Assembly (NCBI GenBank): GCA_937966555.1
Contig: CALCLY010000036.1
Location: 122,116 to 186,115 of the forward strand
DNA: 64,000 bases
Reading direction: 5' to 3'
From: an uncultured Clostridia bacterium
GTDB lineage: Bacteria > Bacillota > Clostridia > UMGS1883 > UMGS1540
Below the pieces are notes generated by a model. It searched no databases. It had not been told where the DNA came from and saw only the letters and a list, made by a program, of their open reading frames with translations. This document shows positions 1-62,275 of the stretch, one piece after another (the first letter of the stretch is position 1; each line of letters begins with the position of its first letter). Made by a program: the position numbers and the translations under genes.

Positions 1-184
1 CATAATTTTCAATTAAATGCTTTTTATACTCCAAAACCTTTGCTTTTGAAAGCTCGCCCCCACAAAGCCACTCTGCAAAAGCTGTTAAATCACGAATATA
101 CTTTTCCGCCGTAGCTTTTGCTTTTTCCTCGCAAATAAGATACTCTTTGAATTTTTTTATTATTTTGTCTGTAATTTTTTTCAT
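1..184 (-). CDS. tyrosine recombinase/integrase, N-terminal fragment (gene continues past left edge)
   Basis: Not in the ORF track (too short). My translation from ATG 184-182 is MKKITDKIIKKFKEYLICEEKAKATAEKYIRDLTAFAEWLCGGELSKAKVLEYKKHLIENY. This fits the SAM-like N-terminal core-binding pattern of Firmicute XerC/D-type integrases. AAGGAG lies 10 nt upstream. Confidence 0.55.
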   Translation of the reverse strand, partial: MKKITDKIIKKFKEYLICEEKAKATAEKYIRDLTAFAEWLCGGELSKAKVLEYKKHLIENY

Positions 185-350
185 AGTCCGACAACTCCTT
201 TACTACTATTATTTTACCACTAACATAGTAATATCCCGTGAAGCTGTCAATAATTTGCCGTTTATAAATAAATTTCCGGTATAAAGTTTATTGAATAAGC
301 GGCAATTTGACAAATGTACGGATTTTCAGATATAAATTAATGTCTACTGA

Positions 351-588
351 ACAAATGGTTTTGCGAAACCATTTGTGTGAAACCTTCGGTTTCACACCTA
401 AAAACAGCATAAGAATGCCGTTTTTAGGTTCACAACATTGATTTAATTACTGTTTCAAGTCAACTGTCGGGGGACGACAGCCGACTTGAAAGTGCAAGAC
501 TTTTGGCAAAAAAGCACAAAATCCTTGCACTTGAACAATTACAAAATGCCGAAAAAATTAGTATATGAGTGCATTTTGTAATTGTTCA
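351..588. other. array of six consecutive stem-loops (non-coding)
   Basis: Inverted repeats read directly: 351-360/366-375 (10 bp); 375-384/388-397 (10 bp); 397-405/420-428 (9 bp, plus inner 407-410/415-418); 453-461/483-491 with nested 464-469/475-480; 492-498/524-530 (7 bp); 532-549/571-588 (18 bp perfect). Confidence 0.7.
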
Positions 589-602
589 GCAGCCATTAAA
601 TT

Positions 603-650
603 AAGCCCGAATATGCAAGCTGACATTTGCTTGTATATTCGGGCTTTTTC
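603..650. terminator. bidirectional rho-independent terminator downstream of the sigma-factor gene
   Basis: Stem AAGCCCGAATATGCAAGC (603-620) pairs with GCTTGTATATTCGGGCTT (629-646) with one G-T pair. TTTTT follows on the plus strand and a T-rich run follows on the minus strand. Confidence 0.6.
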
Positions 651-658
651 TGTTTGTG

Positions 659-1522
659 TCACCAATTACTTTTTATATATTTTCGCAATTTTTCATATGC
701 TCGGTTTACCTCATTTTCAGCAGTCTGTGCCGAGGTTAATTCGTTTTCAATTGCTATTTCCTGATATGTTTTCGACTTTTTCGTAAATCTCAGGCATTCC
801 GGGCATAAGCCGAGATGTGAATATATCATTTCCCGCTCTCTGTAACCGAGCTTTGCAAACGCTTCTTTCAGGAGCTTGTGTAATTCAATTCTCATAAGTA
901 TGTCAAGTGGTTCGGTGGTATAATCGGTAGTTACATCATCCTGTGTGTCATCATCTTCATCGGCATATTTTCTGTAAAAATCAACAATGTTTGTACTCTC
1001 AAGTCCTGCCGTAATAATTTCCGACACATATTGTTCCGAACGCTTGACTTCTTCTGTAATTTTAGATATTGCTTCATTACTGCTGCCGTACCGATAATAC
1101 AAATGCATTATTTTTCGTAAATTTCTGTATGTGGTTTGGCTGCTGCCCGAAAACCCGGTACGCATTGTGCGTATGTAATTATGCACCTCGTTCCACATTA
1201 TACGGACTTTATAGGTTATGAATTGCCCGTCTTTCGATTTATTATAGCTTTTTAGTGCTTTGTATATTCCGCTAACGCATTCCTGCTTTATATCCGCAAA
1301 ATGCCCGTACATAGCATATCTTTGAACAATGTCTGTTACAGTATCATTCAAAACTGGCTCATAATAATGCAAAAACCACATAAGATATTTTTCATCGTTT
1401 TCCGCAAAATATAAATCTATGTATTCCTGAAAATCATCTTTTTTCGGCGGTGCCGGACTCAAACGATAAATATATAGCTCTTTCTCCCATTCCTTCACGG
1501 CACTCACCTCTCTTTCAGCCAT
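659..1522 (-). CDS. sigma-70 family RNA polymerase sigma factor (mobile-element type)
   Basis: 287 aa. The central part looks like region 2 (YAMYGHFADIKQECVSGIYKALKSY). The C-terminus has a region-4-like HTH (YREREMIYSHLGL...KTYQEIAIENELTSAQTAENEVNRAYEKLRKY). The ATG sits 2 nt after the upstream stop, suggesting translational coupling. Confidence 0.6.
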   Translation of the reverse strand: MAEREVSAVKEWEKELYIYRLSPAPPKKDDFQEYIDLYFAENDEKYLMWFLHYYEPVLNDTVTDIVQRYAMYGHFADIKQECVSGIYKALKSYNKSKDGQFITYKVRIMWNEVHNYIRTMRTGFSGSSQTTYRNLRKIMHLYYRYGSSNEAISKITEEVKRSEQYVSEIITAGLESTNIVDFYRKYADEDDDTQDDVTTDYTTEPLDILMRIELHKLLKEAFAKLGYREREMIYSHLGLCPECLRFTKKSKTYQEIAIENELTSAQTAENEVNRAYEKLRKYIKSNW

Positions 1523-1524
1523 TT

Positions 1525-2748
1525 TTATACCGTAACACCTTTTTCGACCGCTTTATATAAATTGTGTTTCTCCATATCGTGCTCAAAATCTTCTGCCGTG
1601 TAATTATCGTCACGGCGAAATTTATGCTTTAAGTCCTTTGCCAGTCTTTTTGCTTTTTCCGCAAATTCCTCCGATATAACTCCCTGCGACTTTTCGGCAC
1701 GGATACAACTGCACCGCCTGTTATAAATATCCGTAATTTTATCATTTTTCGCAAGCTCCTTTTGGTTGTTCTTCGCCGCAAACTTTCTGCAAGTGATTCT
1801 TTCGCCGTCGGTAAGTTCAAGCGGCGCAAAACCCATACAATACTTTTGCTTTCTCGCATTTTCCATAAGGAAGTATGTTTCGCAAATTTCGCATTGCCTC
1901 GGATAATGTCCAAACAAAAGTCCTTCAAAGAAATCAGTTAGGATAAAGCTGTAAAATGTTTCAAAATGAAGCCTTTTTACCAACGCTTTCTTATTGCCCT
2001 TTGGAACGGCAATATATTCGGTTGTTATGTTAAATTGGGCTTTATCAAAAATTTTGTTTGCAAGTGTTAAAAGCTCACTTTCGTTGTAATGCTCCAAATC
2101 ATCCAAGCTCCAAACAAACTCCGTCAAATGTTCAAATGCTTTCATCATATCGTTACCGATATTTTCGTAAAATCTCAATATCCGTATTACAAATCCGATA
2201 AATTCGTTTGCCTTTTTTGAAAGCTCCGCATATCCGTCGGGTAGTATGTCAAGCAGCATTGCACCCTCATCTTGCGTGGATACCTTTGCTCTTTGCCTAT
2301 AATAGTCCAATATGAAGTCTGCATTTTCCTTTGTAAAGGTTTCGGATATTGTTTTTCTCTCGCTTTCAATATCCAGATAGCAGAACGGACTGAAATTTGG
2401 GAGTACATCAAGAATATACAAAATCTCTTTTCCAGTCCTTACAAATTCATAATCGTTTATATAACCTCTTTCCATTGAGGAGGACAATATGTGATTGTCA
2501 AAGGTCATTGCGGCTATCCTTGCACCGTTGTCATTTTCCTCATATCGGTTAAGAAAATCGACGGCAAAACTGCCGACAGTAAATTTATTTTTGTCTATGA
2601 AGGTAAACTTATCTCTGTAATCAACTGTGAAAAACTCTATTTTATCCGGCATATCGAACACCTCAAAACTTTTCAATTTTTTTTGCAAACTTTTATTGCG
2701 AAATATATTTCGTATATCTATTATACCATAACTTTGCTTGTATTTCAA
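1525..2748 (-). CDS. DUF6076-like protein with Cys cluster (family name from memory)
   Basis: 407 aa. C-terminal motif CEICETYF..QKYC..ITCRKFAA. A paralogous C-terminal domain occurs at 14373-15005. The track start is TTG 2748 with no clear RBS. An alternative ATG at 2652 is preceded by GAGGTG. Confidence 0.45.
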   Translation of the reverse strand: MKYKQSYGIIDIRNIFRNKSLQKKLKSFEVFDMPDKIEFFTVDYRDKFTFIDKNKFTVGSFAVDFLNRYEENDNGARIAAMTFDNHILSSSMERGYINDYEFVRTGKEILYILDVLPNFSPFCYLDIESERKTISETFTKENADFILDYYRQRAKVSTQDEGAMLLDILPDGYAELSKKANEFIGFVIRILRFYENIGNDMMKAFEHLTEFVWSLDDLEHYNESELLTLANKIFDKAQFNITTEYIAVPKGNKKALVKRLHFETFYSFILTDFFEGLLFGHYPRQCEICETYFLMENARKQKYCMGFAPLELTDGERITCRKFAAKNNQKELAKNDKITDIYNRRCSCIRAEKSQGVISEEFAEKAKRLAKDLKHKFRRDDNYTAEDFEHDMEKHNLYKAVEKGVTV

Positions 2749-2940
2749 GGGGTTTAGCTGATTGCGGTTTTTATTTTAATACACTTTCGCAATACTTACC
2801 TTTTTGTAAAATCCCTTACATTCTATATATCGGAAGGGGACAAGACAAGCCCTTTCAAATCTTTGAAATGAGATGTGATGCCTATGATTGTATCAATCTG
2901 ACACGAACAATACTAATATGAAAAACGGAGGAATTTAATT

Positions 2941-3237
2941 ATGGGAGCTTATTCAAAAAGGCAGTTTGCAAGGTCAGATTTTGACAGAACGGGATACGAA
3001 TTTAACGAAACAGAGGGAGTGTTTTCCGGAACACTCGTATGTAAAGCTTGGGGTAAAAAGTGTAACATTGTTTGTTATGCGGATTTAGATGACGGGAGAA
3101 AAATAATTTGCACCGCTTATCAAAAGCCGGGCAACTATTTTGGACTACCTGATATCGAGGTCGGTACAAGAATAATTCTTGAGTTCAAAAGAAGCAAACA
3201 AGGTAAAATGCGACTCAATTCAGTACGGGCAGAATAA
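2941..3237 (+). CDS. hypothetical protein (98 aa)
   Basis: ATG is preceded by GGAGG with a 9-nt spacer. No family recognized. Confidence 0.45.
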   Translation: MGAYSKRQFARSDFDRTGYEFNETEGVFSGTLVCKAWGKKCNIVCYADLDDGRKIICTAYQKPGNYFGLPDIEVGTRIILEFKRSKQGKMRLNSVRAE

Positions 3238-3289
3238 CTGTCCTGTACTGTAACGAGCAGGGAGCTTGTATTGCACAAACTCCGAAAAC

Positions 3290-3339
3290 GGCGAGAGTTC
3301 TTAATGAACTCCCGCCGATGATTTTAGGGAGAACCCTAA
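3290..3339 (+). promoter_or_regulatory. candidate oriT inverted repeats upstream of mobC
   Basis: GGCGAGAGTTC (3290-3300) and GAACTCCCGCC (3306-3316) form an inverted repeat with one mismatch. TTAGGG (3324-3329) and CCCTAA (3334-3339) form a second. Assignment rests on position just 5' of the mobC-relaxase pair. Confidence 0.3.
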
Positions 3340-3376
3340 TACCCCGAACAAAATTTTAATAGCAGGAGATGATTTT

Positions 3377-3664
3377 ATGAATGAGAGAACAACCGCAATT
3401 TATGTGCGTGTTACCGAAAAAGAAAAATCACGCATAAAACAAAAAGCAGACAAGTGCGGTTTATCGCAATCGGAGTATTTAAGAAAGAGAGCTTTGGGAT
3501 ATTCGCCCAAAGCTCTTTTGCCGGAAAGCTTTTATGAATTTTCGAGTAAGCTCGGCGAAGTGTATGAGCAAATCAACAAGGAATATAACACAGAAGTTGA
3601 GGAAAAACTTTTATCCCTGCTTGATGAAATTCAGCTAAAGCTACTGACACCCGAAAACGAATAA
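3377..3664 (+). CDS. mobC: MobC-type relaxosome accessory protein
   Basis: 95 aa. N-terminus looks ribbon-helix-helix (RTTAIYVRVTEKEKSRIKQKADKCGLSQSEYLRKRALG). It lies immediately upstream of the relaxase. RBS AGGAG. Confidence 0.75.
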   Translation: MNERTTAIYVRVTEKEKSRIKQKADKCGLSQSEYLRKRALGYSPKALLPESFYEFSSKLGEVYEQINKEYNTEVEEKLLSLLDEIQLKLLTPENE

Positions 3665-3671
3665 AGGAGGT

Positions 3672-5048
3672 ATGCGTGACGTGGCTACAACAGGATTTTG
3701 GCCCGTTAAGGGCAGTTTGAAAGATGTTGTAAATTATGCGGATAACCCCGATAAAACCACCAATTCGAAATACCTCAATAAAGATTTGGCAAACGCACTT
3801 AAATATGTCGAAAACGATAGTAAAACGGATATGAAAATGTTTGTAAGCGGAATCAACTGCCCGACGGTTAGGGCTTATGAACAGATGATGGTAACAAAAC
3901 GCCGTTACGGAAAACTTGGTGGAAATGTTGCATATCACGGTTATCAAAGCTTTAAATCAGGCGAAGTCACTCCCAAAGAAGCACATAAAATCGGCATTGA
4001 AACCGCAAAGCGTATGTGGGGCGGAAACTACGAAATCGTTGTCACAACGCACCTCAATACCGAAAATATCCATAATCATTTTGTAGTCAATTCAGTATCG
4101 TTTAAGACGGGTCGGAAATTTGAAAATCATATTTCAGATCATATCCGTCTGCGTGAAATTTCTGACGTGGTATGCAAGGAATTTAACAAATCGGTAATTG
4201 AAAACGCAAAATTTTATAACAGCGATAAAAAATCATATTGGATACACAAGCAAGGCAAGAAAACACATCGGGATATTTTGCGTGACGATGTGGATTTTGC
4301 GGTTAAAACCTCCGGAAATCTTATGGAATTTGAGCGGATAATGATAAATATGGGATATTCGTTTAATCGAAATATTATGTCGGCACACCCGTCTGTTATT
4401 GCTAAAGGCTGGCAAAGACCTGTTCGCATTGATAGCTTGGGAGAAGAATATTCAACCGAAGGGCTTGTAAAACGAATTGCGGATAACAAGATTTTTGTAA
4501 GCTCTTTCGCCAAAAGCGAGCGAGTACACAAAACAAAGCCAAAGCATACGCCGTTTGCGGAAATGGAATATCAACTGCGGCGGGTAAAATATATGGACAC
4601 ATTAGAGGCTATGTTTTATCTACTCTTAGAGTTGTTAAAACCGTCAAATCCTACCACTAATTACAAGCCACCTTTATCTCCGTTTATGCGTGAGGAAATA
4701 AGAAAGTTTGAACAATACCAAAAGCAGTTCAAGCTCTTGCACGATGAAAAAATCAACACCGTGTCGGAGCTTGAATTTTTTATATCCGACCTATCCAAAC
4801 AGATTAACGATTTGGAAAAGGAACGCTCAAATGCCGATAACAAACGCAGACGAGCCACAACAGATGCGGACAAGAAAATGTATAAGTCTGAAATCAGGGA
4901 TATATCCGCAAAGATAAAACCTATAAGAGAAAAACTGAAAATTGCCAAATCCACATTAGAGTCTGTGCCAAAAGTACAAGAACTGCTTAATATTGAGCGA
5001 GATATGGAAAACAAAATTTTACACAAAGAGAGGAGCAAAATACGATGA
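3672..5048 (+). CDS. MobA/VirD2-family relaxase (mobilization nuclease)
   Basis: N-terminus ATTGFWPVKGSLKDVVNYADNPDKT. His-rich metal motif HLNTENIHNHFVVNSV. C-terminal coiled coil. ATG 3672 is only 1 nt from GGAGG, so the in-frame GTG 3681 (MATTG...) may be the true start. Confidence 0.85.
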   Translation: MRDVATTGFWPVKGSLKDVVNYADNPDKTTNSKYLNKDLANALKYVENDSKTDMKMFVSGINCPTVRAYEQMMVTKRRYGKLGGNVAYHGYQSFKSGEVTPKEAHKIGIETAKRMWGGNYEIVVTTHLNTENIHNHFVVNSVSFKTGRKFENHISDHIRLREISDVVCKEFNKSVIENAKFYNSDKKSYWIHKQGKKTHRDILRDDVDFAVKTSGNLMEFERIMINMGYSFNRNIMSAHPSVIAKGWQRPVRIDSLGEEYSTEGLVKRIADNKIFVSSFAKSERVHKTKPKHTPFAEMEYQLRRVKYMDTLEAMFYLLLELLKPSNPTTNYKPPLSPFMREEIRKFEQYQKQFKLLHDEKINTVSELEFFISDLSKQINDLEKERSNADNKRRRATTDADKKMYKSEIRDISAKIKPIREKLKIAKSTLESVPKVQELLNIERDMENKILHKERSKIR

Positions 5049-5890
5049 AAAATATTACATATATAGAAATTGAAAAATTGAAACCATTTGAAAATCATCC
5101 TTATAAGGTTGTGGAGAATGAAGAAATGAACAATTTAACGCAAAGCATTAAAGAAAACGGAATTTTATCACCGTTTATTGTGCGACCTATCGAAAATGGC
5201 GAATATGAAATAGTATCGGGGCATCGCAGACTATTTGCAGGCAAACAGGCAGGACTTACGAAAATTCCGGCAATAGTATGTGAAATGGATAGAGATACTG
5301 CCGCTATTACATTGGTTGACAGCAATCTTCATAGAGAAAATATTTTACCAAGCGAAAAAGCATTCGCATATAAGCTGAAGGCAGAGGCTTTATCTCATCA
5401 AGGCAAACGCACAGATTTAACTTTGGAGCAAGTTGCACCGAAGTTAAGTACGGAAACAATCGGCGAAAGCGAAAATATAAGTAAGGATACCGTAAAGCGA
5501 TACATACGCTTGACCAAGCTTTTGCCAAAATTGTTGGAACTCGTTGATGAGGCGCGAATTGCTTTCACTCCGGCAGTCGAGCTTTCCTATCTAAATGACA
5601 TCGAGCAACAGGATTTAATTGAAATAATCGAAAGCGAGGATTGCACTCCGTCATTATCACAGGCGGTGCGTATGAAAAAGTTAAGTCAACAAGGACTACT
5701 TACAGACGATAAAATCCTTGAAATTATGTCGGAGGAAAAGGCAAATCAAAAGGAACGAATAAAAATTCCAACAGAGCGAGTGCGAAAATTCTTTCCCCAA
5801 AGTTACAGCACATCGCAAATTGAAGAAGCAATTATTAAACTGTGCGAAACGCATTATCGCAAAAAACAGCGGCAGCAACAAGAAAGGTAA
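5045..5890 (+). CDS. ParB/Spo0J-like nuclease-domain protein
   Basis: ParB N-terminal motifs LKPFENHPY and EIVSGHRRLFAGKQAGLTKIPA. ATGA overlap with the relaxase stop. Confidence 0.85.
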   Translation: MKNITYIEIEKLKPFENHPYKVVENEEMNNLTQSIKENGILSPFIVRPIENGEYEIVSGHRRLFAGKQAGLTKIPAIVCEMDRDTAAITLVDSNLHRENILPSEKAFAYKLKAEALSHQGKRTDLTLEQVAPKLSTETIGESENISKDTVKRYIRLTKLLPKLLELVDEARIAFTPAVELSYLNDIEQQDLIEIIESEDCTPSLSQAVRMKKLSQQGLLTDDKILEIMSEEKANQKERIKIPTERVRKFFPQSYSTSQIEEAIIKLCETHYRKKQRQQQER

Positions 5891-5902
5891 GGTGAGTTTT
5901 AT

Positions 5903-6085
5903 ATGACAAAACAAGCTAACAGTCTATACGAGTTTTTTTCTCCGACTTTAGATAAGGACAATTTGGATTTTGAATTAAAAATCGGCGGTACAACCTACGA
6001 GATATGCACTCGCTTTAATATCAATGGCAAACAAAGCATATTGGAGCAGTTCAAAAACTTGATTTTATCAGAAAATTTGATTTAA
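5903..6085 (+). CDS. TnpW-like small transposon protein
   Basis: 60 aa. KIGGTTYEICTRFNINGKQSILEQFKNLILSE resembles the (R/K)IGxTTYEV..F....KE..E.K...LI pattern I recall for Tn4451-type TnpW. It lies directly upstream of the serine recombinase. Confidence 0.5.
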   Translation: MTKQANSLYEFFSPTLDKDNLDFELKIGGTTYEICTRFNINGKQSILEQFKNLILSENLI

Positions 6086-6168
6086 TACATTCGACAATTT
6101 GTGTCGGGCATAGTAAAATAGCAATGAAGCCTTTGCTATGCCCGGTTGTCGGAAAGGAGAAACGAATT

Positions 6169-7860
6169 ATGACAACTCAAAATATTATAGGGCAAACAAC
6201 AGAAGAAATAACTGCATTGTACGGAAGATTATCACAAGATGACGGTTTGGAGGGCGAAAGCAACAGCATATTCAATCAAAAAGAAATTCTGATGAAATAT
6301 GCAAAAGAGCACAATCTGAAAAATCTGAGATTTTTTATTGATGACGGAATTTCAGGTACAACCTTTGAGCGAAGCGGCTTTAAGGAAATGCAAGCACTTG
6401 CAGAAGCCGGAATTGTAAAAACTATTGTGGTAAAAGATTTATCCCGTTTCGGCAGAAACTACATTGAAGTCGGCGAATATCTTGAAATCAAATATCCCAC
6501 TCTCGGCGTAAGGTTTATATCTATTCAGGAAAATGTTGACACAATGCAAAACACAGGTGCGGAAATGATGCCGTTTCATAATATATTTAATGAATGGTAC
6601 GCCGCACAGACAAGCAAGAAAATTCGTGCCGTATGGCAGATGAAAGCCTCAAGCGGAAAGCGTGTCGGCTCATCTGTCCCTTACGGATATATGAAATCTC
6701 CCGAAGATAAGGAAAAATGGATAATTGATGAAGAAGCCGCAGAGGTTGTCAGAAAGATATTTTCACTATCTCTCTCCGGGCGAGGTATTTCACAAATCGC
6801 CCGTCAATTAGAGCAAGAAAAAATACTTATTCCTACGGCATATAAAATAGAAAAAGGATTATCCGCATCGCACAAGTATCCCGAAAAACCCTATTATTGG
6901 GATTCATCAACCGTTGCAGGAATAATTGATAACAGACAGTATACGGGATGTACTGTAAATTTCAAAACAACAACAGTAAGCTACAAAGTTCATAGGGTTA
7001 TACGTAAATCCGAAGATGAGCAGCAAATAATTCCTAACACACAAGAACCGATTATAGATGAGGACTTGTGGTTACGAGTTCAAGAGCTTCGTCAGCATAA
7101 GAGAAGACCGACATCTACGGGAAGGACAAGCCTGTTTTCGGGTTTGGTTTATTGCCCCGATTGCGGAGCAAAATTGCATTTTGCCGCCGCTAAGAGTATG
7201 ACAAGACAGCAGGAGCATTTCAGATGTTCAAATTACAAGAGCGGTCGGGGTGAATGTCAAATACATTTCATAAGAGATGTAGTTCTTGAAAAAATAGTAT
7301 TTGAAGCCATAAGCAACTTATCTGATTTTGTCAGATGTTATGAATCGGTATTTTTGTACTTGATGGCAACAAAAAATCAAACGTCAAGAAAAAGTAAGCT
7401 TCAAAAACTGAAAAGCAAGGTGGAAAACGAAAAAAGACGAATATCCGAGCTTGATGTGATTATTTCACGCATTTACGAGGACAATATTTTAGGCAAGATA
7501 AGCGATGAAAGATATTCCCGAATGTCTGTTATGTACGAAAACGAGCAAAAAGAGCTTATAAAAACAGTTTCCGCCGAAGAAAAAGAATTGGAAACAGCCG
7601 AGCAAAAAAATGTTGATATGCGGCTGCTGCTAAAAACGCTGCGAGAATTGACCGATTTTAAGGAGCTTACTCCGACAATCGTTAATTCTTTGATACAACG
7701 GATAGAAGTTCACAACAACGATAAGTATGATGGTCATTGCCACGTAAAAGTCGATATTTACTTTACTGCCGTGGGAATGATTGATGTTCCTGATGAAAAA
7801 GAAATATTGGATATAATAAATAAAATCCAAGATAATCCACAGATGTACAAGGTTGGATAA
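6169..7860 (+). CDS. large serine recombinase (TnpX-like, DUF4368-type C-terminus)
   Basis: Resolvase catalytic domain (YGRLSQDDGLEGESNSI..., VVKDLSRFGRNY). Zn-ribbon CPDCGAKLHF..FRCSNY. C-terminal coiled coil and IQRIEVH tail. Start moved to ATG 6169 (GGAGA RBS) from the track start at 6124. Confidence 0.9.
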   Translation: MTTQNIIGQTTEEITALYGRLSQDDGLEGESNSIFNQKEILMKYAKEHNLKNLRFFIDDGISGTTFERSGFKEMQALAEAGIVKTIVVKDLSRFGRNYIEVGEYLEIKYPTLGVRFISIQENVDTMQNTGAEMMPFHNIFNEWYAAQTSKKIRAVWQMKASSGKRVGSSVPYGYMKSPEDKEKWIIDEEAAEVVRKIFSLSLSGRGISQIARQLEQEKILIPTAYKIEKGLSASHKYPEKPYYWDSSTVAGIIDNRQYTGCTVNFKTTTVSYKVHRVIRKSEDEQQIIPNTQEPIIDEDLWLRVQELRQHKRRPTSTGRTSLFSGLVYCPDCGAKLHFAAAKSMTRQQEHFRCSNYKSGRGECQIHFIRDVVLEKIVFEAISNLSDFVRCYESVFLYLMATKNQTSRKSKLQKLKSKVENEKRRISELDVIISRIYEDNILGKISDERYSRMSVMYENEQKELIKTVSAEEKELETAEQKNVDMRLLLKTLRELTDFKELTPTIVNSLIQRIEVHNNDKYDGHCHVKVDIYFTAVGMIDVPDEKEILDIINKIQDNPQMYKVG

Positions 7861-7976
7861 CAAGGAAAATGGAGTAGCTCCTTGATTTTGGAACTACTCC
7901 ATAAAAAACTTCCTTATCTGGCGTTGGCAAACGTCAACCGACTTTTTAAACAGCCCCTTTTCGTTTTTTTTATTTA

Positions 7977-9179
7977 TTATTTATTTACTATTCTTAAAGT
8001 TTCCCTTGCTATGGCAAGCTCTTCGTTTGTGGGAAGGAGGAGAACTTTAACTTTCGAATCGGGTGCGGAAATTACGCGTCTTTCGCCTTTTACGTTATTT
8101 GCTTCGTCATCGATTTTAACACCGAGGTATCCGAGATAATCATCGCAAATAAGTTTGCGTGCTTTTATATCGTTTTCGCCGACACCTGCCGTAAATGCGA
8201 TAGCGTCAACACCATTCATTGCAGCGGCATATGCGCCGATGTATTTTGCAACTCTGTATCTGAAAGCTTCAAGAGCCGCTTCTGCCTGATGGTTACCAGC
8301 TGCCGCAGCTTTGTCAACATCGCGGAAGTCGGAAGAAATGCCGCCGCTCATGCCCAGGATACCGGACTTTTTGTTGAGTATATTGAGCATTTCGTTAATG
8401 TCGATTCCTTCATGATTGCAGATAAACTGAAGCGCAGCGGGGTCAATGTCGCCGGAGCGAGTTCCCATGATAAGTCCCTCCAAAGGAGTGAGACCCATTG
8501 ATGTGTCAACACATTTGCCGCCTATGGAAGCAGATATGCTCGCGCCGTTTCCGAGATGGCATACGATAACTTTAGCTTTGTCGGGATCAAGGTTTGCCAT
8601 TTTTATAGCTTCGCCCGAAACAAACATATGGCTTGTGCCATGGAAGCCATAGCGGCGGAGCTTGTATTTTTTATAATAATTATAGGGGATAGCATAAAGA
8701 TATGCTTTTTCTTCCATTGACATGCCGAACGCCGTGTCAAATACAGCAACGTTGGGCTTACCCGGCATTGCTGCTTCGCATGCTTCAATACCTATAAGGT
8801 TTGCGGGGTTGTGAAGCGGTCCCAAATCAAAACACTCACGGATGACTTTTTTAACGTCCTCGTCAACCTGAATTGATTCCGTATATGTATTTCCGCCGTG
8901 GAGTACACGGTGACCGATGGCATAAATATCGGAAGTGTCTGCGATAACACCGTGCTCTTTATCCGTGAGCGCATCAAGAACCAATTTTATTGCATCTTTG
9001 TGCGAGGGCATGGGTGTTTCGGTTTCGTATTTGTCCTTGCCTGTGGGCTTATGCGTGAGTTTCGAGCCGTTTATGCCGATTCTTTCGCAAAGACCTTTTG
9101 CAAGAACCTGTTCGCTTTCGCTGTCAATAAGCTGATACTTAAGCGAAGAACTTCCGCAGTTTACTATGAATATTTTCAT
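7977..9179 (-). CDS. ackA: acetate kinase
   Basis: MKIFIVNCGSSSLKYQL N-terminus and conserved C-terminus PTNEELAIARETL. Start set to ATG 9179 (GGAG with 6-nt spacer); the track start is an upstream TTG. Confidence 0.95.
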   Translation of the reverse strand: MKIFIVNCGSSSLKYQLIDSESEQVLAKGLCERIGINGSKLTHKPTGKDKYETETPMPSHKDAIKLVLDALTDKEHGVIADTSDIYAIGHRVLHGGNTYTESIQVDEDVKKVIRECFDLGPLHNPANLIGIEACEAAMPGKPNVAVFDTAFGMSMEEKAYLYAIPYNYYKKYKLRRYGFHGTSHMFVSGEAIKMANLDPDKAKVIVCHLGNGASISASIGGKCVDTSMGLTPLEGLIMGTRSGDIDPAALQFICNHEGIDINEMLNILNKKSGILGMSGGISSDFRDVDKAAAAGNHQAEAALEAFRYRVAKYIGAYAAAMNGVDAIAFTAGVGENDIKARKLICDDYLGYLGVKIDDEANNVKGERRVISAPDSKVKVLLLPTNEELAIARETLRIVNK

Positions 9180-9197
9180 GTTTTTCTCCTTCAAAAA

Positions 9198-10205
9198 TTA
9201 TTTTTGTATCATCTGAGCCTGTACGCATGTGATTGCAACAACGCCTGCGATATCATCGGCGTTACAGCCTCTTGAAAGGTCGTTTACGGGAGCTGCTATA
9301 CCCTGGAGAACAGGACCGTATGCCTCAGCCTTTGCAAGACGCTGAACAAGCTTGTAGCCTATGTTGCCGGCATCAAGATTCGGGAATATAAGAACGTTTG
9401 CATGACCTGCAATAGCACTATCGGGAGCTTTTGCTTTGCCTATCTCGGGAACGATTGCAGCGTCAAGCTGAAGCTCGCCGTCAAGCTTTAATTCAGGAGC
9501 TTTTTCTTTTGCAAGACGTGTAGCTTCAACAACTTTTTCAACAAGCGTATGCTTTGCGGAACCGTAGCTTGAGTGAGAAAGCATTGCAACTTTCGGTTCT
9601 GCACCGAAAAGGTTCTTGAAGGACTGAGCCGAGGAAATTGCAATTTCAGAAAGCTCGTCTGCTGTGGGATCCTGGTTAAGACCGCAGTCGGCGAATACAA
9701 ATGCGCCGTTTTCGCCGTATTCGCAGTCCGGAACTATCATGGCAAAAAATGCCGATACAAGCTTTGTGCCGGGAGCTGTTTTGAGAATTTGAAGTGCGGG
9801 GCGCAAAACATTTGCCGTGGCGTTTATAGCACCTGCAACCATGCCGTCAGCGTCGCCGGACTTAACCATCATTGTGCCGAAATAAAGAACATTGTCAAGA
9901 GTTTCCAAAGCCTTTTCGGGCGTCATGCCTTTTGCTTTGCGAAGCTCATAAAACTTATCGGCATAAGCGGCTTTGTCGGGCGAAGTTTTGGGATTTATAA
10001 GCTTTGCGGCGCTGATATCAAGATTTTCACTTTCAGCCATTTTTTTGATTTCGGATTCATCACCCAAAATGATAATGTTGGCTATTTCATCTTTCAAAAC
10101 TTTTGCCGCAGCGCGGATTGTACGCATATCACTGCCTTCGGCAAGAACAACGGTTTTCTTGTCGCTCTTGGCTTTTGCAATGATTCCGTCCATAAATTTA
10201 CTCAT
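9198..10205 (-). CDS. pta: phosphate acetyltransferase
   Basis: 335 aa short-form Pta (TVVLAEGSDMRTIRAAAKVL...; GPVLQGIAAPVNDLSRGC). Forms a pta-ackA operon. Confidence 0.95.
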   Translation of the reverse strand: MSKFMDGIIAKAKSDKKTVVLAEGSDMRTIRAAAKVLKDEIANIIILGDESEIKKMAESENLDISAAKLINPKTSPDKAAYADKFYELRKAKGMTPEKALETLDNVLYFGTMMVKSGDADGMVAGAINATANVLRPALQILKTAPGTKLVSAFFAMIVPDCEYGENGAFVFADCGLNQDPTADELSEIAISSAQSFKNLFGAEPKVAMLSHSSYGSAKHTLVEKVVEATRLAKEKAPELKLDGELQLDAAIVPEIGKAKAPDSAIAGHANVLIFPNLDAGNIGYKLVQRLAKAEAYGPVLQGIAAPVNDLSRGCNADDIAGVVAITCVQAQMIQK

Positions 10206-10332
10206 ATAAAATCATCTCCAAATATTTATTTTGCTTTAACAGTATAATTATACAACACTTGTTTGCAAAATTCAAGAGAAAAATGCATAATATGTCAAAA
10301 AATAAATTATTTTTTTATTTTTCAAAAAGGGG

Positions 10333-14017: not shown

Positions 14018-14109
14018 GGACGGGTATCGAAGTGGTCATAACGGGGCTGACTCGAAATCAGTTTGTCGGTAATACCGGCACGTGGGTTCGAATCCCACCC
14101 CGTCCGCCA
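14018..14109 (+). tRNA. tRNA-Ser (anticodon CGA), CCA encoded
   Basis: Acceptor GGACGGG/CCCGTCC. Anticodon stem-loop GCTGA-CTCGAAA-TCAGT. Long variable arm. T-arm GTGGG-TTCGAATC-CCAC. It starts 1 nt after the tadA stop. Confidence 0.9.
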
Positions 14110-14112
14110 ATT

Positions 14113-14160
14113 ATGCGGGTTTGCTTAACTTTTGCGAACCCGCATTTACTTTATGTTTTT
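14113..14160 (+). terminator. rho-independent terminator after tRNA-Ser
   Basis: 12-bp stem 14113-14124/14134-14145 (one G-T pair) followed by a T-rich tail. Confidence 0.6.
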
Positions 14161-14372
14161 TGCCCAATTTTGCCTTAAACCTCACCATTATTCGTTACCG
14201 TACAGTAATTCAAGCGGCTTGAAATACGGTATAATTATACTGCACACATTGTCGCGATAGCCGCTGTATGTAGTAAGCTGAATACTCGGTTTGACGCGTT
14301 CAAGCCATTGCTGCATTTATCGAATACCTTGCCGAGGGAACAGATAAAGCTCTTGCGGAATTTACGGCGTTT

Positions 14373-15005
14373 ATGGGCAGTGATTTTGCAGCGCCTCAAA
14401 AAGATTCGGCGCATTATATGATGAATTTTATCAATGCTATGACGGCAAGTATTGAGCAGAAAAAAGCTGAAATCAAGTTTTATATAAATGATATTATGAA
14501 AGATAAAAACGGTTCCCTTAATCAGCGTTTTGTAAACTGCGGAAAAGAGAGCAAACTGTTTGATTTTCAATTTGATTCGCATTTTGATTTTGAAAACGAT
14601 GTAATTATCTATCCTCTCGAAACTATGGATGATGTAATTCGCTTTGATATTATGCAGATGCTTGCAAATAAGATTAAATTCAAGCCGTGCAAATGCTGCG
14701 GTCATTATTTTGTGCCCGGCGGGCGCACGAACAGCGAATACTGCGACAGAATTATGCCCGGCGAAACAAGACCTTGCAATGAGTTCGGCGCACTTAAAAC
14801 ATTTGATATCACTCATAAAAACGACGATATTCATAAAGCCTATATCACCGCTTACCGCCGTATGGACTCACGCCAGCGCGCAAAGCTCATCACTAAAGAT
14901 GAATTCAAGCAGTTCGGCAAAATTGCCCGTGCCGAGCGTAAAAAATGCTATAACGGCGAAATAACTCTTGATCAGTTCAAAACTTGGCTTGATGATTTTA
15001 GATAA
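14373..15005 (+). CDS. DUF6076-like protein, short form (paralog of 1525-2748 C-terminal half)
   Basis: CKCCGHYF..SEYC..RPCNEFGA..AYRRMDSR aligns with CEICETYF..QKYC..ITCRKFAA..IYNRRCSC of the 407-aa protein. The open frame extends upstream to 14295 without an ATG. Confidence 0.45.
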   Translation: MGSDFAAPQKDSAHYMMNFINAMTASIEQKKAEIKFYINDIMKDKNGSLNQRFVNCGKESKLFDFQFDSHFDFENDVIIYPLETMDDVIRFDIMQMLANKIKFKPCKCCGHYFVPGGRTNSEYCDRIMPGETRPCNEFGALKTFDITHKNDDIHKAYITAYRRMDSRQRAKLITKDEFKQFGKIARAERKKCYNGEITLDQFKTWLDDFR

Positions 15006-15017
15006 ATGTATAGCGAA

Positions 15018-15044
15018 AGCAGCAGATTGCGGTCTGCTGCTTTT
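15018..15044. terminator. bidirectional terminator between convergent genes
   Basis: AGCAGCAGA (15018-15026) pairs with TCTGCTGCT (15033-15041), perfect 9 bp, followed by TTT. Confidence 0.6.
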
Positions 15045-15049
15045 GTGGA

Positions 15050-18000: not shown

Positions 18001-18082
18001 ATAAATCGCCCTTTGTATATCCGCCGCAGTTTAACATATAGCTTTCTATGTCCTGCTCAAAGCGTTTTTCTTTTATATTCAT
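15050..18082 (-). CDS. hsdR: type I restriction endonuclease subunit R
   Basis: 1010 aa. Walker A HSAGSGKS and DEAH box VIVDEAHNS. N-terminal nuclease-like region. An AAGGAGG RBS lies inside the end of hsdS. Confidence 0.9.
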   Translation of the reverse strand: MNIKEKRFEQDIESYMLNCGGYTKGDLSTYNRETSIDLPKLIQYIKATQPKEWQKYERNYGADAEKRLYKRFQECVDTFGLTYVLKHGFEDRGAKIKIVSFKENTTLNDSVLADYNSNIVTCTRQFKYSTENENSIDMVLSVNGIPVVALELKDQLTGQSVANAKKQFMTDRNPKEFCFRFDNRFLVYFAVDLYEVAMTTKLDGEKTFFLPFNQGSNGAGNVGGKGNPENKNGYATSYLWEKVLTKDSLLNILQRFLQRVEEEKIVYSNGKEVKKKSVKLIFPRFHQLDVVSKLVADVKDNGSGHNYLIQHSAGSGKSNSIAWLAYQLTELHDKDNKPIFTSVIVVNDRTVLDRQTQNTIYGFDHTKGVVEKIDDDKHSADLKAAINNGKKIIITTIQKFPYIYNEIDDTTDRRFAVIVDEAHNSQTGKNAAKLKTALADTEDALKEYAELEGIAEDEVKDQEDKLVDEMLSHGKHKNLSFFAFTATPKEKTLEIFGTPRENGKGFRPFHIYSMKQAIEEGFILDVLKNFMHYKTCYRIAKQTPDNPEVPANKAVKAVLRYKELHPHNIAQKTAIIIETYRSVTKNKINGRAKAMVVTASRLHAIRYYHEMKRYIESHGYDDVEILVAFSGVVKDGEFEYTEEGLNKRKDGTTIKESQLPSEFNKDEYAMLVVAEKYQTGFDEPLLHTMFVDKKLKDVKAVQTLSRLNRTCPGKTDTFVLDFVNTAEDIQKAFEPYYEATYLDEEINVNMIYDTRQLLRQKGIYDENDIQEFLKIFLKKDQNDSDLGKLTSLLKPVVARYEAMSEEDRFEVKKTVKNFNKWYSYITQISRMFDRSLQEEYTYTQYLEKMLPPVSDTRNVDLEDKLKLEYYKIQEDFHGDISLAPTEATKTLENPKSLKTAGFMSEEDALLEEIISKINERFDGIFSEGDRVIVETLYNRAKENKKLNRQAQKNDEEVYTKSIFPEVFKQVAQDCYMEQMKAFSKLFEDKRFYDTVMATLAQETYRTSNRV

Positions 18083-18085
18083 AGG

Positions 18086-21795: not shown

Positions 21796-21820
21796 TGTAA
21801 ATTTCTCCTTTATTTATAGT

Positions 21821-59411: not shown

Positions 59412-59503
59412 TGGCGGAGAAGGAGAGATTCGAACTCTCGCACCGGTTTCCCAGCCTACTCCCTTAGCAGGGGAGCCCCTTCGACCTACTTGGGTACTTC
59501 TCC
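59412..59503 (-). tRNA. tRNA-Ser (anticodon GCU), CCA encoded
   Basis: Reverse complement reads GGAGAAG...CTCCC-CTGCTAA-GGGAG...long variable arm...GAGAGTTCGAATCTCTC-CTTCTCC-G-CCA. Confidence 0.9.
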
Positions 59504-59532
59504 GTATGTGTTAAGTTTTAAAAGAGAATGTT

Positions 59533-59619
59533 TGGCGGAGAAGGTGGGATTCGAACCCACGGCTCTTTCGAGTCACTGGTTTTCAAGACCAGCTCCTTAA
59601 ACCGCTCGGACACCTCTCC
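59533..59619 (-). tRNA. tRNA-Ser (anticodon UGA), CCA encoded
   Basis: Reverse complement reads GGAGAGG...CTGGT-CTTGAAA-ACCAG...variable arm...GTGGGTTCGAATCCCAC-CTTCTCC-G-CCA. Confidence 0.9.
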
Positions 59620-62096: not shown

Positions 62097-62230
62097 AAAA
62101 AGGGGATGTTAAAAAACTCCGGAACGCAAGCAAATTTCTCCTCTCGACGTACCCATGTACGCCTTCGGGTATCCCAAACTTTAGTTTTGGCTCAGTTTGC
62201 CGATTCCAAAGCTTTTTTCCTATCCCCTTG

Positions 62231-62275
62231 AAAAAATGGGCTGCTTAAAAAGTCAACCGACTTTTTAAACAGCCC
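62231..62275 (-). terminator. rho-independent terminator of the ThrE-type exporter operon
   Basis: GGGCTGCTTAAAAAGTC (62238-62254) pairs with GACTTTTTAAACAGCCC (62259-62275) with one mismatch and loop AACC. T6 follows on the minus strand. Confidence 0.7.

What the first reader, a model, noticed from the sequence alone, without database searches (positions are those of the whole stretch)
7861..7960. Element junction maps to the loop of the ackA terminator; an intact copy of that hairpin at 62238-62275 may be an empty target site
Seen in sequence: the 24 nt gtcaaccgactttttaaacagccc at 7933-7956 are identical to 62252-62275.
At 62238-62275 this sequence is the loop and right arm of a clean terminator hairpin (left arm GGGCTGCTTAAAAAGTC).
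At the ackA locus the matching left arm is replaced by unrelated sequence (ctggcgttggcaaac) that continues into the serine-recombinase gene, which ends 75 nt away.
Inference: the TnpX-like recombinase inserted the element into the terminator hairpin downstream of ackA, making this an attR-type hybrid site. The 62.2-kb hairpin would be an unoccupied attB-like paralog.
Established knowledge: large serine recombinases recognize imperfectly palindromic att sites and cross over at a central dinucleotide.
Basis: partly seen in the sequence, partly recalled or inferred. Interest (0 to 1): 0.5.

Follow-up and report, generated by a model that had tools for sequence, protein, structure and literature searches.

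The report
Mobile island splits ackA terminator hairpin
A 21-kb mobilizable island with a TnpX-like serine recombinase inserted at a TT/AA dinucleotide in the terminator hairpin shared by ackA and mreB, and the intact look-alike hairpin 54 kb away is a real spare target that related miniature elements occupy in other strains; this is a well-resolved example of a known kind of element, not a new mechanism.

Summary

- **Repeat:** the 24-mer occurs exactly twice, with 0 expected by chance.
- **Empty site:** strains with an identical AckA carry a complete 38-nt bidirectional terminator hairpin between convergent ackA and mreB.
- **Insertion:** here that hairpin is split by a 21.3-kb integrative mobilizable island. 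It runs TnpV ... AbiE, methyltransferase ... NikA, relaxase, ParB-like, DUF4368 large serine recombinase. The far junction, read on a contig 100% identical to the window, supplies the missing arm.
- **Crossover:** the two junctions share only AAA. The crossover therefore lies at an AA/TT dinucleotide in the mreB-side arm, next to the loop rather than in it.
- **Multiple targets:** the identical recombinase and island sit at four or more chromosomal sites, all in terminators. One site has a clean empty allele crossing over at a loop TT.
- **Site motif:** 109 of 114 flanks of this end motif have TT/AA, and there is an A-tract fixed 12-17 nt outward.
- **62.2-kb hairpin:** it belongs to a ~180-nt paralogous module. 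It is empty here, but in other strains it holds a 277-bp MITE-like element with the same terminal repeats.

The closest known relatives are the Tn4451/TnpX family and the multi-targeting DUF4368 recombinases. The recombinase-type MITE family is the possibly new part.

The parts
1..7931 (.). Right-hand 7.9 kb of a 21,315-bp integrative mobilizable island. The rest lies about 13.4 kb beyond the window's left edge.
   Evidence: Window 1-10300 is 100% identical to L011. L139 overlaps L011 at 100% over 5.7 kb and reaches mreB. The length was computed.
1..184 (-). N-terminal part of a 279-aa XerC/D-like tyrosine recombinase gene inside the island (cargo or an internal module).
   Evidence: Coordinates mapped from L128. 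NCBIfam Xer-type hits fall below the curated cut-offs.
659..1522 (-). Sigma-70-family protein gene of the island.
   Evidence: Pfam Sigma70_r2; NCBIfam sigma70-ECF superfamily.
1525..2652 (-). DUF6076 protein gene of the island.
   Evidence: Pfam PF19553, E = 5e-45.
3377..5048 (+). Mobilization module: NikA-like accessory protein (3377-3664) and MobA/VirD2-type relaxase (3681-5048).
   Evidence: Pfam PF21983, E = 4e-17, and PF03432, E = 4e-37.
5045..5890 (+). ParB-N-domain protein gene.
   Evidence: Pfam PF02195, E = 6e-22; TIGR00180.
6169..7860 (+). Large serine recombinase of 563 aa (an alternative start is at 6124), TnpX-like, with a C-terminal DUF4368 domain.
   Evidence: Pfam Resolvase, Recombinase, Zn_ribbon_recom and DUF4368. 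YGRLSQDD catalytic-serine motif. The best PDB match is the TnpX N-terminal domain 2MHC, E = 3e-34.
7869..7902 (.). The recombinase's own 13-bp-stem terminator hairpin. On the minus strand it can also stop ackA read-through now that the ackA terminator is split.
   Evidence: Terminator scan; fold of 7860-7975 on the minus strand.
7908..7928 (+). Recombinase-proximal att arm ACTTCCTTATCTGGCGTTGGC. It is the inverted-repeat partner of the far end GGCGAGACCAGATAAGGAAGT.
   Evidence: The same 21-mer lies 70-90 nt after the stop codon of 56-68%-identical recombinases in eight other genomes. The far end is shown.
7929..7931 (.). AAA shared by both junctions. It contains the inferred AA/TT crossover dinucleotide.
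   Evidence: The identical element end is followed by C-GTCAACC, A-GCCACAA or C-CCTGTGCG at three sites. The far junctions end ...AAA-GGCGAGA. The AraC-site empty allele shares only TT with the occupied one.
7932..7976 (.). Retained half of the ackA/mreB terminator: the B' half-site CGTCAACCGACTTTTT, then AAACAGCCCC, a T-run and the ackA stop.
   Evidence: Alignment with the empty sites L008, L009 and L142.
7977..9179 (-). ackA (acetate kinase), intact.
   Evidence: Pfam PF00871, E = 7e-147. Start chosen. The exact protein was found on contigs in 232 index blocks of the collection.
62098..62275 (.). Paralogous ~180-nt copy of the mreB-side intergenic module, ending in the intact hairpin.
   Evidence: 95% identity over 146 nt and 97% over 37 nt to the ackA-mreB intergenic region of empty-site strains.
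62238..62275 (.). Intact bidirectional terminator hairpin between the peptidase-M14/51-aa genes and ThrE_2. It is an unoccupied target. The predicted crossovers lie in the A-run 62247-62251 or, in mirror image, the T-run 62262-62266.
   Evidence: Fold and scan. The same hairpin carries a 277-bp MITE in L148, L149, L150, L153, L155 and L156, and a scar allele in L151 and L154.

Best explanation
The window holds the recombinase-side junction of a 21.3-kb integrative mobilizable element. Its TnpX-like, DUF4368-type large serine recombinase integrated the circular element by conservative recombination.

The reconstructed attP is ACTTCCTTATCTGG-CGTTGGC-AAA-GGCGAGA-CCAGATAAGGAAGT. The reconstructed attB, about 40 bp, lies inside the nested terminator hairpin shared by convergent mreB and ackA: AAAAAAGGGGCTGTGGCT-AA-ACGTCAACCGACTTTTT. 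The staggered 2-nt cut falls in the AA/TT at 7929-7931.

The enzyme is multi-targeting. It appears to recognise a loose palindromic site, A-tract, G-rich stretch, about 9-10 nt, TT, then the mirror image. That is essentially the anatomy of a bidirectional intrinsic terminator, so the element lands between convergent genes without disrupting them, and it brings its own terminator.

The 62.2-kb hairpin is a paralogous copy of the same site. It is empty in this genome and used by 277-bp non-autonomous relatives in other strains.

**Shown:** both junctions, the empty sites, multiple insertion sites, the site motif, and occupancy of the paralog.
**Inferred:** catalysis by the serine recombinase, the 2-nt stagger, a circular intermediate, and direct recognition of the A/T tracts.
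For: - **Empty sites:** contigs with the identical AckA have the full hairpin.
- **Far junction:** on the same contig as the window (L178) and on L139, the normal mreB flank and the other hairpin arm abut an inverted copy of the end motif.
- **Junction overlap:** only AAA is shared between the two junctions, which fits a serine-recombinase 2-nt crossover and not a 6-8-bp tyrosine-recombinase core.
- **Independent insertion:** the identical 563-aa recombinase sits at a canonical terminator, empty AAAAAACGCACAGGG-TT-ACTGCCTGTGCGTTCTTTTTT against occupied ...CACAGGG-TT-TGCCAACGCC.
- **Further sites:** pheT/SLH and PEPCK. In one metagenome sample the ackA site is empty while the island sits at pheT, both at about 15.5x coverage (L001 and L127).
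- **Conserved linkage:** the 21-mer end lies next to the stop codon of 56-68%-identical recombinases in eight other genomes, two of them with the same NikA-relaxase-ParB-recombinase order.
- **Flank statistics:** 109 of 114 have TT/AA, and A reaches 0.71-0.87 at positions -18 to -16 against a 0.28 background.
- **Protein identity:** domain architecture and the TnpX match.
- **Literature:** DUF4368 marks the multi-targeting clade, with a TT core and A/T-rich flanks (PMC10083194).
Against: - No excision product or attP joint was observed. The one JGI metagenome scan for the joint found nothing.
- The exact attB allele reconstructed for the ackA site (GGCT-AA-ACGTCAACC) was not seen among the sampled empty sites. 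Each half occurs in different alleles (L001/L005 for the left half; L004/L006 for AAAACGTC), so one base next to the core rests on assumed polymorphism.
- The island also encodes a Xer-like tyrosine recombinase and an IS256-type transposase, so other enzymes are present.
- The A-tract signal could partly reflect survival of insertions in terminators rather than recognition.
- Two MITE copies (L020, L099) have TT facing outward at both ends. A single conservative recombination does not produce that.
Confidence: 0.85

Rival explanations
1. The island is integrated and excised by its internal Xer-like tyrosine recombinase. The serine recombinase would then be cargo or a resolvase.
For: A 279-aa Phage_integrase-domain protein travels with the island at all sites.
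Against: - It lies about 7 kb from either end.
- The junctions share only 2-3 nt rather than a 6-8-bp overlap region.
- It is truncated or split in L130 and L134, while the island still sits at its site.
- The conserved end motif is physically linked to the serine recombinase gene in other genomes.
- Every NCBIfam hit is below its cut-off.
Confidence: 0.03
2. The ends are terminal inverted repeats of a DDE-type transposon. The TT/TTT at the junctions would be a short target-site duplication made by a transposase acting in trans, such as the IS256-type gene in the island or an unidentified one.
For: - The elements have 21-25-nt terminal inverted repeats and many dispersed copies.
- A 2-3-nt direct repeat cannot by itself distinguish a duplication from a crossover.
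- An IS256-family transposase gene lies in the island.
Against: - That transposase gene is split in most copies.
- It sits internally and would be expected to have its own ends. IS256 makes 8-9-bp duplications (own knowledge).
- The motif is conserved next to serine recombinase genes across 56-68%-identical homologues.
- The targets are long palindromic sites of about 40 bp with a fixed A-tract spacing, as expected for large serine recombinase attB sites.
- The reconstructed joint is a palindrome around TT/AAA, like an attP.
Confidence: 0.05
3. The 24-nt identity only reflects a dispersed terminator module. The island would have arrived next to ackA by homologous or illegitimate recombination between hairpin-like sequences, not by site-specific recombination.
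For: - The hairpin belongs to a ~180-290-nt module present at three or more loci.
- The element arms resemble the hairpin arm (ACAGCCC).
- Scar alleles show that short-repeat deletions do happen here.
Against: - The same island end joins three unrelated flanks at exactly the same base.
- The AraC-site target shares nothing with the element except TT.
- The empty and occupied alleles differ by a precise insertion.
Confidence: 0.02
4. This rival concerns the 62.2-kb site only. The 277-bp elements would be inert remnants of decayed islands (CIME-like) inherited vertically, so their presence in that hairpin would say nothing about current target use.
For: - No recombinase-bearing island was seen at the 62.2-kb site.
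- The MITE repeats differ from the island's arms at 4-5 of 21 positions.
- Some copies look recombination-dead (L020, L099).
Against: - Presence/absence polymorphism occurs at two paralogous hairpins and in either arm of the ackA hairpin (L002-type against L004-type).
- Single genomes hold eight or more copies at unrelated terminators, often breaking assemblies.
- The 21-mer of some MITEs is identical to the far-end 21-mer of a full-length-type end (L043).
Confidence: 0.15

Closest known systems
Tn4451/Tn4453 family (TnpX) and Tn5397 (TndX): clostridial mobilizable or conjugative transposons moved by a large serine recombinase
   Same: - A large serine recombinase with DUF4368; the N-terminal domain matches the solved TnpX domain at E = 3e-34.
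- A TnpV gene at the opposite end.
- A Mob relaxase and no conjugation machinery.
- A 2-nt crossover and several target sites. Targets that resemble the element's own joint are own knowledge for Tn4451; here the pheT-site target GGGGCTGTGGCT-AA-AGCCACAACCCC is of that kind.
   Different: - The core here is TT/AA, not the GA reported for Tn4451 and Tn5397 (own knowledge).
- The accessory genes differ: NikA with a MobA/VirD2-type relaxase, a ParB-like protein, a sigma factor and DUF6076, rather than tnpZ, tnpY and catP.
- The cargo is defence-type (AbiE, methyltransferase with a DndB/DpdB-like protein) rather than chloramphenicol resistance.
- The island is 21 kb. The target is terminator-shaped with fixed A/T tracts.
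Multi-targeting DUF4368 clade of large serine recombinases, for example Cp36 (Durrant et al. 2022, PMC10083194)
   Same: - DUF4368 is present.
- One recombinase sequence is found at four or more distinct targets.
- The TT core is conserved, with A/T-enriched outer positions.
   Different: That paper gives a general motif and does not mention terminators in the passages read. Here the targets are specifically bidirectional terminator hairpins, and the family has abundant miniature derivatives.
CIMEs (cis-mobilizable elements), att-flanked remnants of ICEs and IMEs (Guedon group; review PMC5704250)
   Same: The 277-bp elements retain both att-type ends and no genes, and they occupy the same sites as the full element.
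   Different: - CIMEs are described as single decayed copies at one specific site.
- These elements are short and uniform, with about 25-nt inverted repeats.
- They occur in many copies per genome at unrelated terminators across many species, which is MITE-like behaviour.
Tn7 at attTn7, the glmS terminator (own knowledge)
   Same: It works in a similar way at the level of outcome: insertion into the terminator region downstream of a conserved gene, which is a safe harbour that leaves the gene intact.
   Different: The machinery is unrelated (TnsABCD, a DDE-type transposase and a 5-bp duplication), it uses one dedicated site, and recognition lies in the glmS coding end.
DUF6783 162-nt MITE of Eubacteriales (SPLASH preprint, 10.1101/2024.01.18.576133)
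   Same: A palindromic miniature element in gut Firmicutes with no target duplication and insertion at TT|AG. The MITE here also reads TT|AGCCAC.
   Different: The length and sequence differ, and translations of the present MITE give no DUF6783 hit. That element was not linked to a recombinase.

Membership tests
Large serine recombinase | N-terminal resolvase catalytic domain with the nucleophilic serine | tested here: met
   PF00239, E = 7e-24, residues 31-179. YGRLSQDD motif. TnpX N-terminal domain 2MHC, E = 3e-34.
Large serine recombinase | Recombinase domain plus zinc-ribbon domain C-terminal to the catalytic domain | tested here: met
   PF07508, E = 1e-22, and PF13408, E = 2e-12.
Large serine recombinase | Conservative recombination at a central dinucleotide, with no target duplication | tested here: met
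   - AraC site: the empty and occupied alleles share only TT.
- ackA site: the two junctions share AAA.
- MITE at ackA and at 62.2 kb: T5 becomes T3 + T5.

This is sequence inference only, with no biochemistry.
Large serine recombinase | attP is an imperfect palindrome of about 40-50 bp around the crossover | tested here: met
   The reconstructed joint is ACTTCCTTATCTGG-CGTTGGC-AAA-GGCGAGA-CCAGATAAGGAAGT, with 14-nt perfect outer repeats. The joint itself was not observed.
Multi-targeting DUF4368 / TndX-like clade | DUF4368 domain | tested here: met
   PF14287, E = 1e-20, residues 488-554.
Multi-targeting DUF4368 / TndX-like clade | The same recombinase (90% identity or more) integrated at more than 3 distinct target loci | tested here: met
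   - The identical protein is at the ackA, pheT and AraC-type sites.
- The island's other end is additionally at a PEPCK site and a LeuA-side site.
Multi-targeting DUF4368 / TndX-like clade | Conserved core dinucleotide with degenerate A/T-rich flanks | tested here: met
   109 of 114 flanks have TT/AA, with an A-tract at -20 to -15. The comparison is with PMC10083194.
Tn4451/Tn5397 proper | GA crossover dinucleotide (own knowledge) and the tnpX-tnpV-catP-tnpY-tnpZ-tnpW gene set | tested here: not met
   The core is TT/AA. Only TnpV and the recombinase are shared, and the relaxase is MobA/VirD2-type with NikA. It is a relative, not a member.
Integrative mobilizable element (IME) | Own integration/excision enzyme plus a relaxase and accessory protein, but no mating-pore genes | tested here: met
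   The recombinase, NikA and relaxase are present. The gene lists covering the whole 21.3 kb show no VirB4, VirD4 or T4SS families. They rest on precomputed Pfam hits. The oriT was not located.
Integrative mobilizable element (IME) | Excision to a circular form and transfer with a helper | not testable with these tools
   Only indirect support is available: different sites in different strains, and within one sample. The joint search was negative.
MITE-like non-autonomous element (the 277-bp relatives) | Short, non-coding, with terminal inverted repeats matching an autonomous element | tested here: met
   - Most complete copies are 274-277 bp, and one is 199 bp.
- The repeats are about 25 nt, GCCACAGCCCGGCAAGGAAGTATTG and GCCACAACCCGATAAGGAAGTATTG.
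- There are no Pfam or Rfam hits.
- The 21-mer is shared with recombinase-linked ends.
MITE-like non-autonomous element (the 277-bp relatives) | Many copies per genome and presence/absence polymorphism | tested here: met
Single MAGs hold eight or more copies, often at contig ends.
- The element is polymorphic at the ackA and 62.2-kb hairpins.
MITE-like non-autonomous element (the 277-bp relatives) | Mobilised in trans by the related recombinase | not testable with these tools
   This is inferred from the shared ends, the shared target position and the TT core. Two copies (L020, L099) do not fit a single conservative event.

The most novel reading that the evidence does not exclude
The island's recombinase family also drives a large, previously undescribed family of about 277-bp MITE-like elements in uncultured gut Clostridia. 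Their terminal repeats would be serine-recombinase att arms, not transposase ends, and they home to bidirectional terminators through an A-tract/TT/T-tract site. Their imprecise loss leaves scar alleles that resemble the element's own joint, such as GGGGCTGTGGCT-AA-A. These scars then serve as preferred landing sites for the full islands and as substrates for chromosomal rearrangements.
Probability: 0.5. Interest if true: 0.7.

Novelty: new member of a known kind. Interest (0 to 1): 0.5.

Why it matters
- **A fully resolved natural example.** Both junctions, several empty sites, four or more alternative targets and a site motif are documented for a multi-targeting DUF4368 serine recombinase. 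This enzyme class is being developed for genome insertion, and such data give direct attP and attB candidates for testing.
- **Why the element is harmless where it lands.** It sits inside a shared terminator and brings a replacement terminator.
- **Terminators as a mobile-DNA niche.** The data suggest that bidirectional terminators are a general niche for mobile DNA in gut Clostridia.
- **A possible new route to MITEs.** If the miniature relatives are indeed moved by the recombinase, they would be a route to MITE formation that does not involve a DDE transposase. They would also be a source of strain-level rearrangements and assembly breaks in gut metagenomes.

Tried and rejected
- **Missing arm inside the window.** I searched for it and for a second copy of the end motif with up to 3 and up to 6 mismatches. 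Only the known sites turned up, so the far end is outside the window.
- **Plasmid collection.** Megablast of 1-10300 gave no match.
- **Viral contigs.** A scan with the end motif found nothing.
- **Direct MreB look-up.** I got round this with cluster-member ids.
- **pheT-site empties.** The pheT allele I looked up occurs only with the island, so no empty pheT site was obtained.
- **Circular joint.** The search in JGI metagenomes found nothing.
- **Rfam.** Scans of the window and of the MITE/intergenic module gave only tRNAs and sub-threshold noise.
- **DUF6783 MITE.** I tested whether the MITE is the described DUF6783 element. There was no hit.
- **The 62.2-kb copy as the displaced other half of the ackA site.** I considered an inversion and rejected it. 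The copy has both arms, different flanking genes, and the same arrangement in strains without the island.
- **Literature.** Searches for serine-recombinase MITEs or terminator targeting found no direct precedent.

Full report
**1. The observation**

The 24-mer GTCAACCGACTTTTTAAACAGCCC occurs at 7933-7956 and 62252-62275 and nowhere else in the window, even with 3 mismatches. None is expected by chance.

At 62238-62275 it forms the loop and one arm of a 17-bp-stem hairpin flanked by an A-run and a T-run. The hairpin folds at -27 to -30 kcal/mol on either strand (z about -7.6) and is called as a terminator.

Downstream of ackA (7977-9179, minus strand) the other arm is missing. In its place is ...ACTTCCTTATCTGGCGTTGGCAAAC. 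This follows the terminator (7869-7902) and stop codon (7858-7860) of a 563-aa large serine recombinase.

**2. What lies to the left**

Window 659-7860 encodes a sigma-70-family protein, a DUF6076 protein, a 98-aa ORF, a NikA-like protein, a MobA/VirD2 relaxase, a ParB-N protein, a 60-aa ORF and the recombinase. The recombinase has the Resolvase, Recombinase, Zn_ribbon_recom and DUF4368 domains. Its best solved relative is the N-terminal domain of TnpX (2MHC, E = 3e-34).

No complementary arm and no second copy of the end motif exists in the window. The other end is therefore outside it.

**3. Empty sites**

Looking up the exact AckA protein gave contigs from conspecific gut metagenome strains. 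In L008, L009 and L142, ackA and mreB are convergent and 315-320 nt apart. Directly after ackA lies the complete hairpin TGGGCTGTCTAAAAAGTC-GGTT-GACTTTTTAAACAGCCC, followed by ATTTTTTCAAGGGGATAGG.... L003/L011 carry the same element as the window, at 100% identity over 10.3 kb.

**4. The far junction**

Via the commonest MreB allele and the TnpV protein I reached the other end on L139. I also reached it on L178, which is the same contig as L011.

The mreB-proximal intergenic sequence runs unchanged up to ...CCTATACCCTTGAAAAAAGGGGCTGTGGCT-AAA. It then meets GGCGAGACCAGATAAGGAAGTAATTTTG..., followed by TnpV, an IS256-type transposase, a DndB/DpdB-like protein, an N6/N4 methyltransferase, AbiEii/AbiEi, DUF6591, a Band_7 protein, two zinc-ribbon proteins, an HTH protein and a Xer-like tyrosine recombinase. 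After these come the genes seen in the window.

The island is 21,315 bp. Its two ends are inverted repeats, so the reconstructed joint is ACTTCCTTATCTGG-CGTTGGC-AAA-GGCGAGA-CCAGATAAGGAAGT. The two junctions share only AAA. The crossover is therefore an AA/TT dinucleotide within window 7929-7931. That position is in the mreB-side arm, 1-3 nt outside the inner GTC stem, and not in the loop.

The flanking arm is a variant, GGGGCTGTGGCTAAAG instead of GGGCTGTTTAAAAAG. The same variant occurs in empty-site strains (L001, L005).

**5. The recombinase is multi-targeting**

The identical 563-aa protein, with the same neighbouring genes, is found at three sites: downstream of ackA, downstream of pheT, and downstream of a 710-aa AraC/dCache regulator. 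The element end is identical up to GTTGGCAAA and is then followed by C-GTCAACCGAC..., A-GCCACAACCCCATTTTTT or C-CCTGTGCGTTTTTT.

For the regulator site there are empty alleles: AAAAAACGCACAGGG-TT-ACTGCCTGTGCGTTCTTTTTT. This is a textbook bidirectional terminator. The occupied allele reads ...CGCACAGGG-TT-TGCCAACGCC, so the exchange is at the TT in the loop and nothing else is shared.

The TnpV end is additionally found next to a PEPCK gene and next to LeuA. In sample ERZ4560346 the ackA site is empty (L001) while the island sits at pheT (L127), both at about 15.5x coverage.

**6. The end motif is a family signature**

Nearly all are in uncultured gut Clostridia, plus Solibaculum intestinale.

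In eight loci the motif lies 70-90 nt beyond the stop codon of a recombinase 56-68% identical to the window's. Two of these loci have the same NikA-relaxase-ParB-recombinase order.

Of 114 unique outer flanks, 109 have TT or AA at positions -3 and -2. A reaches 0.71-0.87 at positions -18 to -16, against a background of 0.28, and a G-rich stretch follows.

So the half-site is A-tract, G-rich stretch, about 9-10 nt, then TT. A full site is effectively a bidirectional terminator. The sharpness of the A-tract position argues for recognition rather than mere survival in terminators, but that is inference.

The ackA attB fits this pattern. The outer A-run of the big hairpin forms one half-site and the inner GACTTTTT forms the other. 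This also explains why the nested hairpin offers two mirror-image sites.

**7. Miniature relatives and the 62.2-kb hairpin**

Many motif hits are +/- pairs enclosing a 274-277-bp non-coding element with about 25-nt inverted repeats (one copy is 199 bp). No Pfam or Rfam family matches it.

In conspecific strains this element sits in the ackA hairpin at the same position as the island. L002, L006 and L007 read GAC-T-TT-A|GCCACAGCCCGG...GGGTTGTGGC|T-TT-TTAAACAGCCC. In the mirror-image arm it sits in the opposite orientation (L004, L137, L138, L141, L143).

Window 62098-62275 is a ~180-nt paralog of the mreB-side intergenic module. Looking up the neighbouring ThrE_2 protein gave three kinds of allele:
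- The hairpin is empty in L147 and L152. L152 comes from the same sample as the window-type contig.
- It carries the 277-bp element at the equivalent TT in L148, L149, L150, L153, L155 and L156.
- It carries a scar allele, GACTTTAGCCACAGCCCATTTTTTC, in L151 and L154.

The scar is what deletion between the ACAGCCC of the hairpin arm and the ACAGCCC of the element's repeat would leave. The same kind of scar forms the island's left flank at both the ackA and pheT sites.

The 62.2-kb hairpin is therefore a genuine, currently empty target. Its use is shown for the miniature elements and not for the 21-kb island.

**8. Comparison with what is known**

DUF4368-bearing large serine recombinases form the multi-targeting clade that includes TndX-like transposases. 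For one of them, a TT core with A/T-rich flanks has been reported (PMC10083194). IMEs with such recombinases, and att-flanked remnants called CIMEs, are described (PMC5704250 and 10.1101/2024.01.18.576133).

The island is thus a new member of a known kind. It is related to Tn4451/Tn4453 (TnpX-like recombinase, TnpV, a Mob gene). It is not a member of that family, because the core is TT rather than GA (own knowledge) and the gene set differs.

I found no paper that links serine recombinases to MITE-like families or to terminator targeting. That absence covers only the held library.

**9. Caveats**

- Catalysis, the 2-nt stagger and the circular intermediate are inferred. A scan of JGI metagenomes for the joint found nothing.
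- The exact pre-insertion allele at ackA was not sampled. One base next to the core (C in AAAC-GTC) is explained by an allele seen in L001, L004 and L006.
- Two miniature copies (L020, L099) have fully palindromic flanks with TT facing outward on both sides. One conservative recombination cannot produce that.

Noticed in passing
window 62098-62237; L142 11018-11290; L148 4750-5010; L183 about 2240-2310: The hairpin is the end of a longer intergenic module of about 180-290 nt (...CTTGCGTTCCGGAGTTTTTTAACATCCCC...GGTACCCGAAGGCGTACATG...CAAGGGGATAGGAAAAAAGC...). The module recurs downstream of mreB, downstream of the peptidase-M14/51-aa genes, next to a 2315-aa gene and next to LeuA. It has no Rfam match and its nature is unknown; it could be an sRNA, a 3'UTR or another repeat.
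   Followed up: partly
L138 11290-11650; L148 and L149 4470-5060: Contigs in which the sequence beyond a 277-bp MITE switches to a different chromosomal neighbourhood. L138 has mreB, the MITE and then no ackA. L148 and L149 have ThrE_2, the MITE and then other genes. This suggests rearrangements with breakpoints at MITE copies, or assembly chimeras at the repeat.
   Followed up: no
L020 89-363; L099 1095-1370: Two MITE copies whose flanks are perfect inverted repeats right up to the element, with TT facing outward on both sides. This does not fit a single conservative recombination with a TT core.
   Followed up: no
ackA hairpin alleles in L001-L009 and L137-L146: The 4-nt loop and the adjacent mismatch occur in both orientations among strains (GGTT against AACT/AGTT; AAAACGTC on either arm). 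It looks as if the inner hairpin flips between alleles.
   Followed up: no
window 14018-23209: A tRNA gene (14018-14106) next to the dCMP-deaminase gene is followed by a DUF6076 remnant and a type I restriction-modification locus (HsdR, 1010 aa). In other strains the same spot holds different tyrosine-integrase elements (L001, L002, L006, L007). It is a second, unrelated integration hotspot.
   Followed up: no
L150 8122-8450, equivalent to about window 59300: In one strain another DUF4368 serine recombinase gene (546 aa) lies beside YunB, where the window has two tRNA genes (59415-59619). This is probably a further element of the same clade at yet another site.
   Followed up: no
island outside the window: L011 12872-20864; L139 11483-15964; L180 3383-4609: The cargo looks defence-oriented:
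- AbiEi/AbiEii, with PADLOC E-values down to 1e-90.
- A type II-like N6/N4 methyltransferase next to a DndB/DpdB-like 580-aa protein.
- A Band_7/GYF protein with two zinc-ribbon proteins.

The IS256-type transposase is split into two ORFs in most copies and intact (408 aa) in L180.
   Followed up: partly
L134 1-3400: A pheT-site variant of the island in which the Xer-like recombinase gene is truncated to 142 aa. It directly abuts an inverted TnpV gene and an IS3-family transposase. This indicates an internal deletion or inversion of about 10 kb.
   Followed up: no
window 447-490: An imperfect 17-bp hairpin, TTTCAAGTCAACTGTCG-GGGGA-CGACAGCCGACTTGAAA, lies in the non-coding stretch between the Xer-like gene and the sigma-factor gene. 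It contains GTCAAC/GTCGGC like the inner ackA hairpin. This is possibly coincidence, or possibly an internal recombination or oriT-type site.
   Followed up: no
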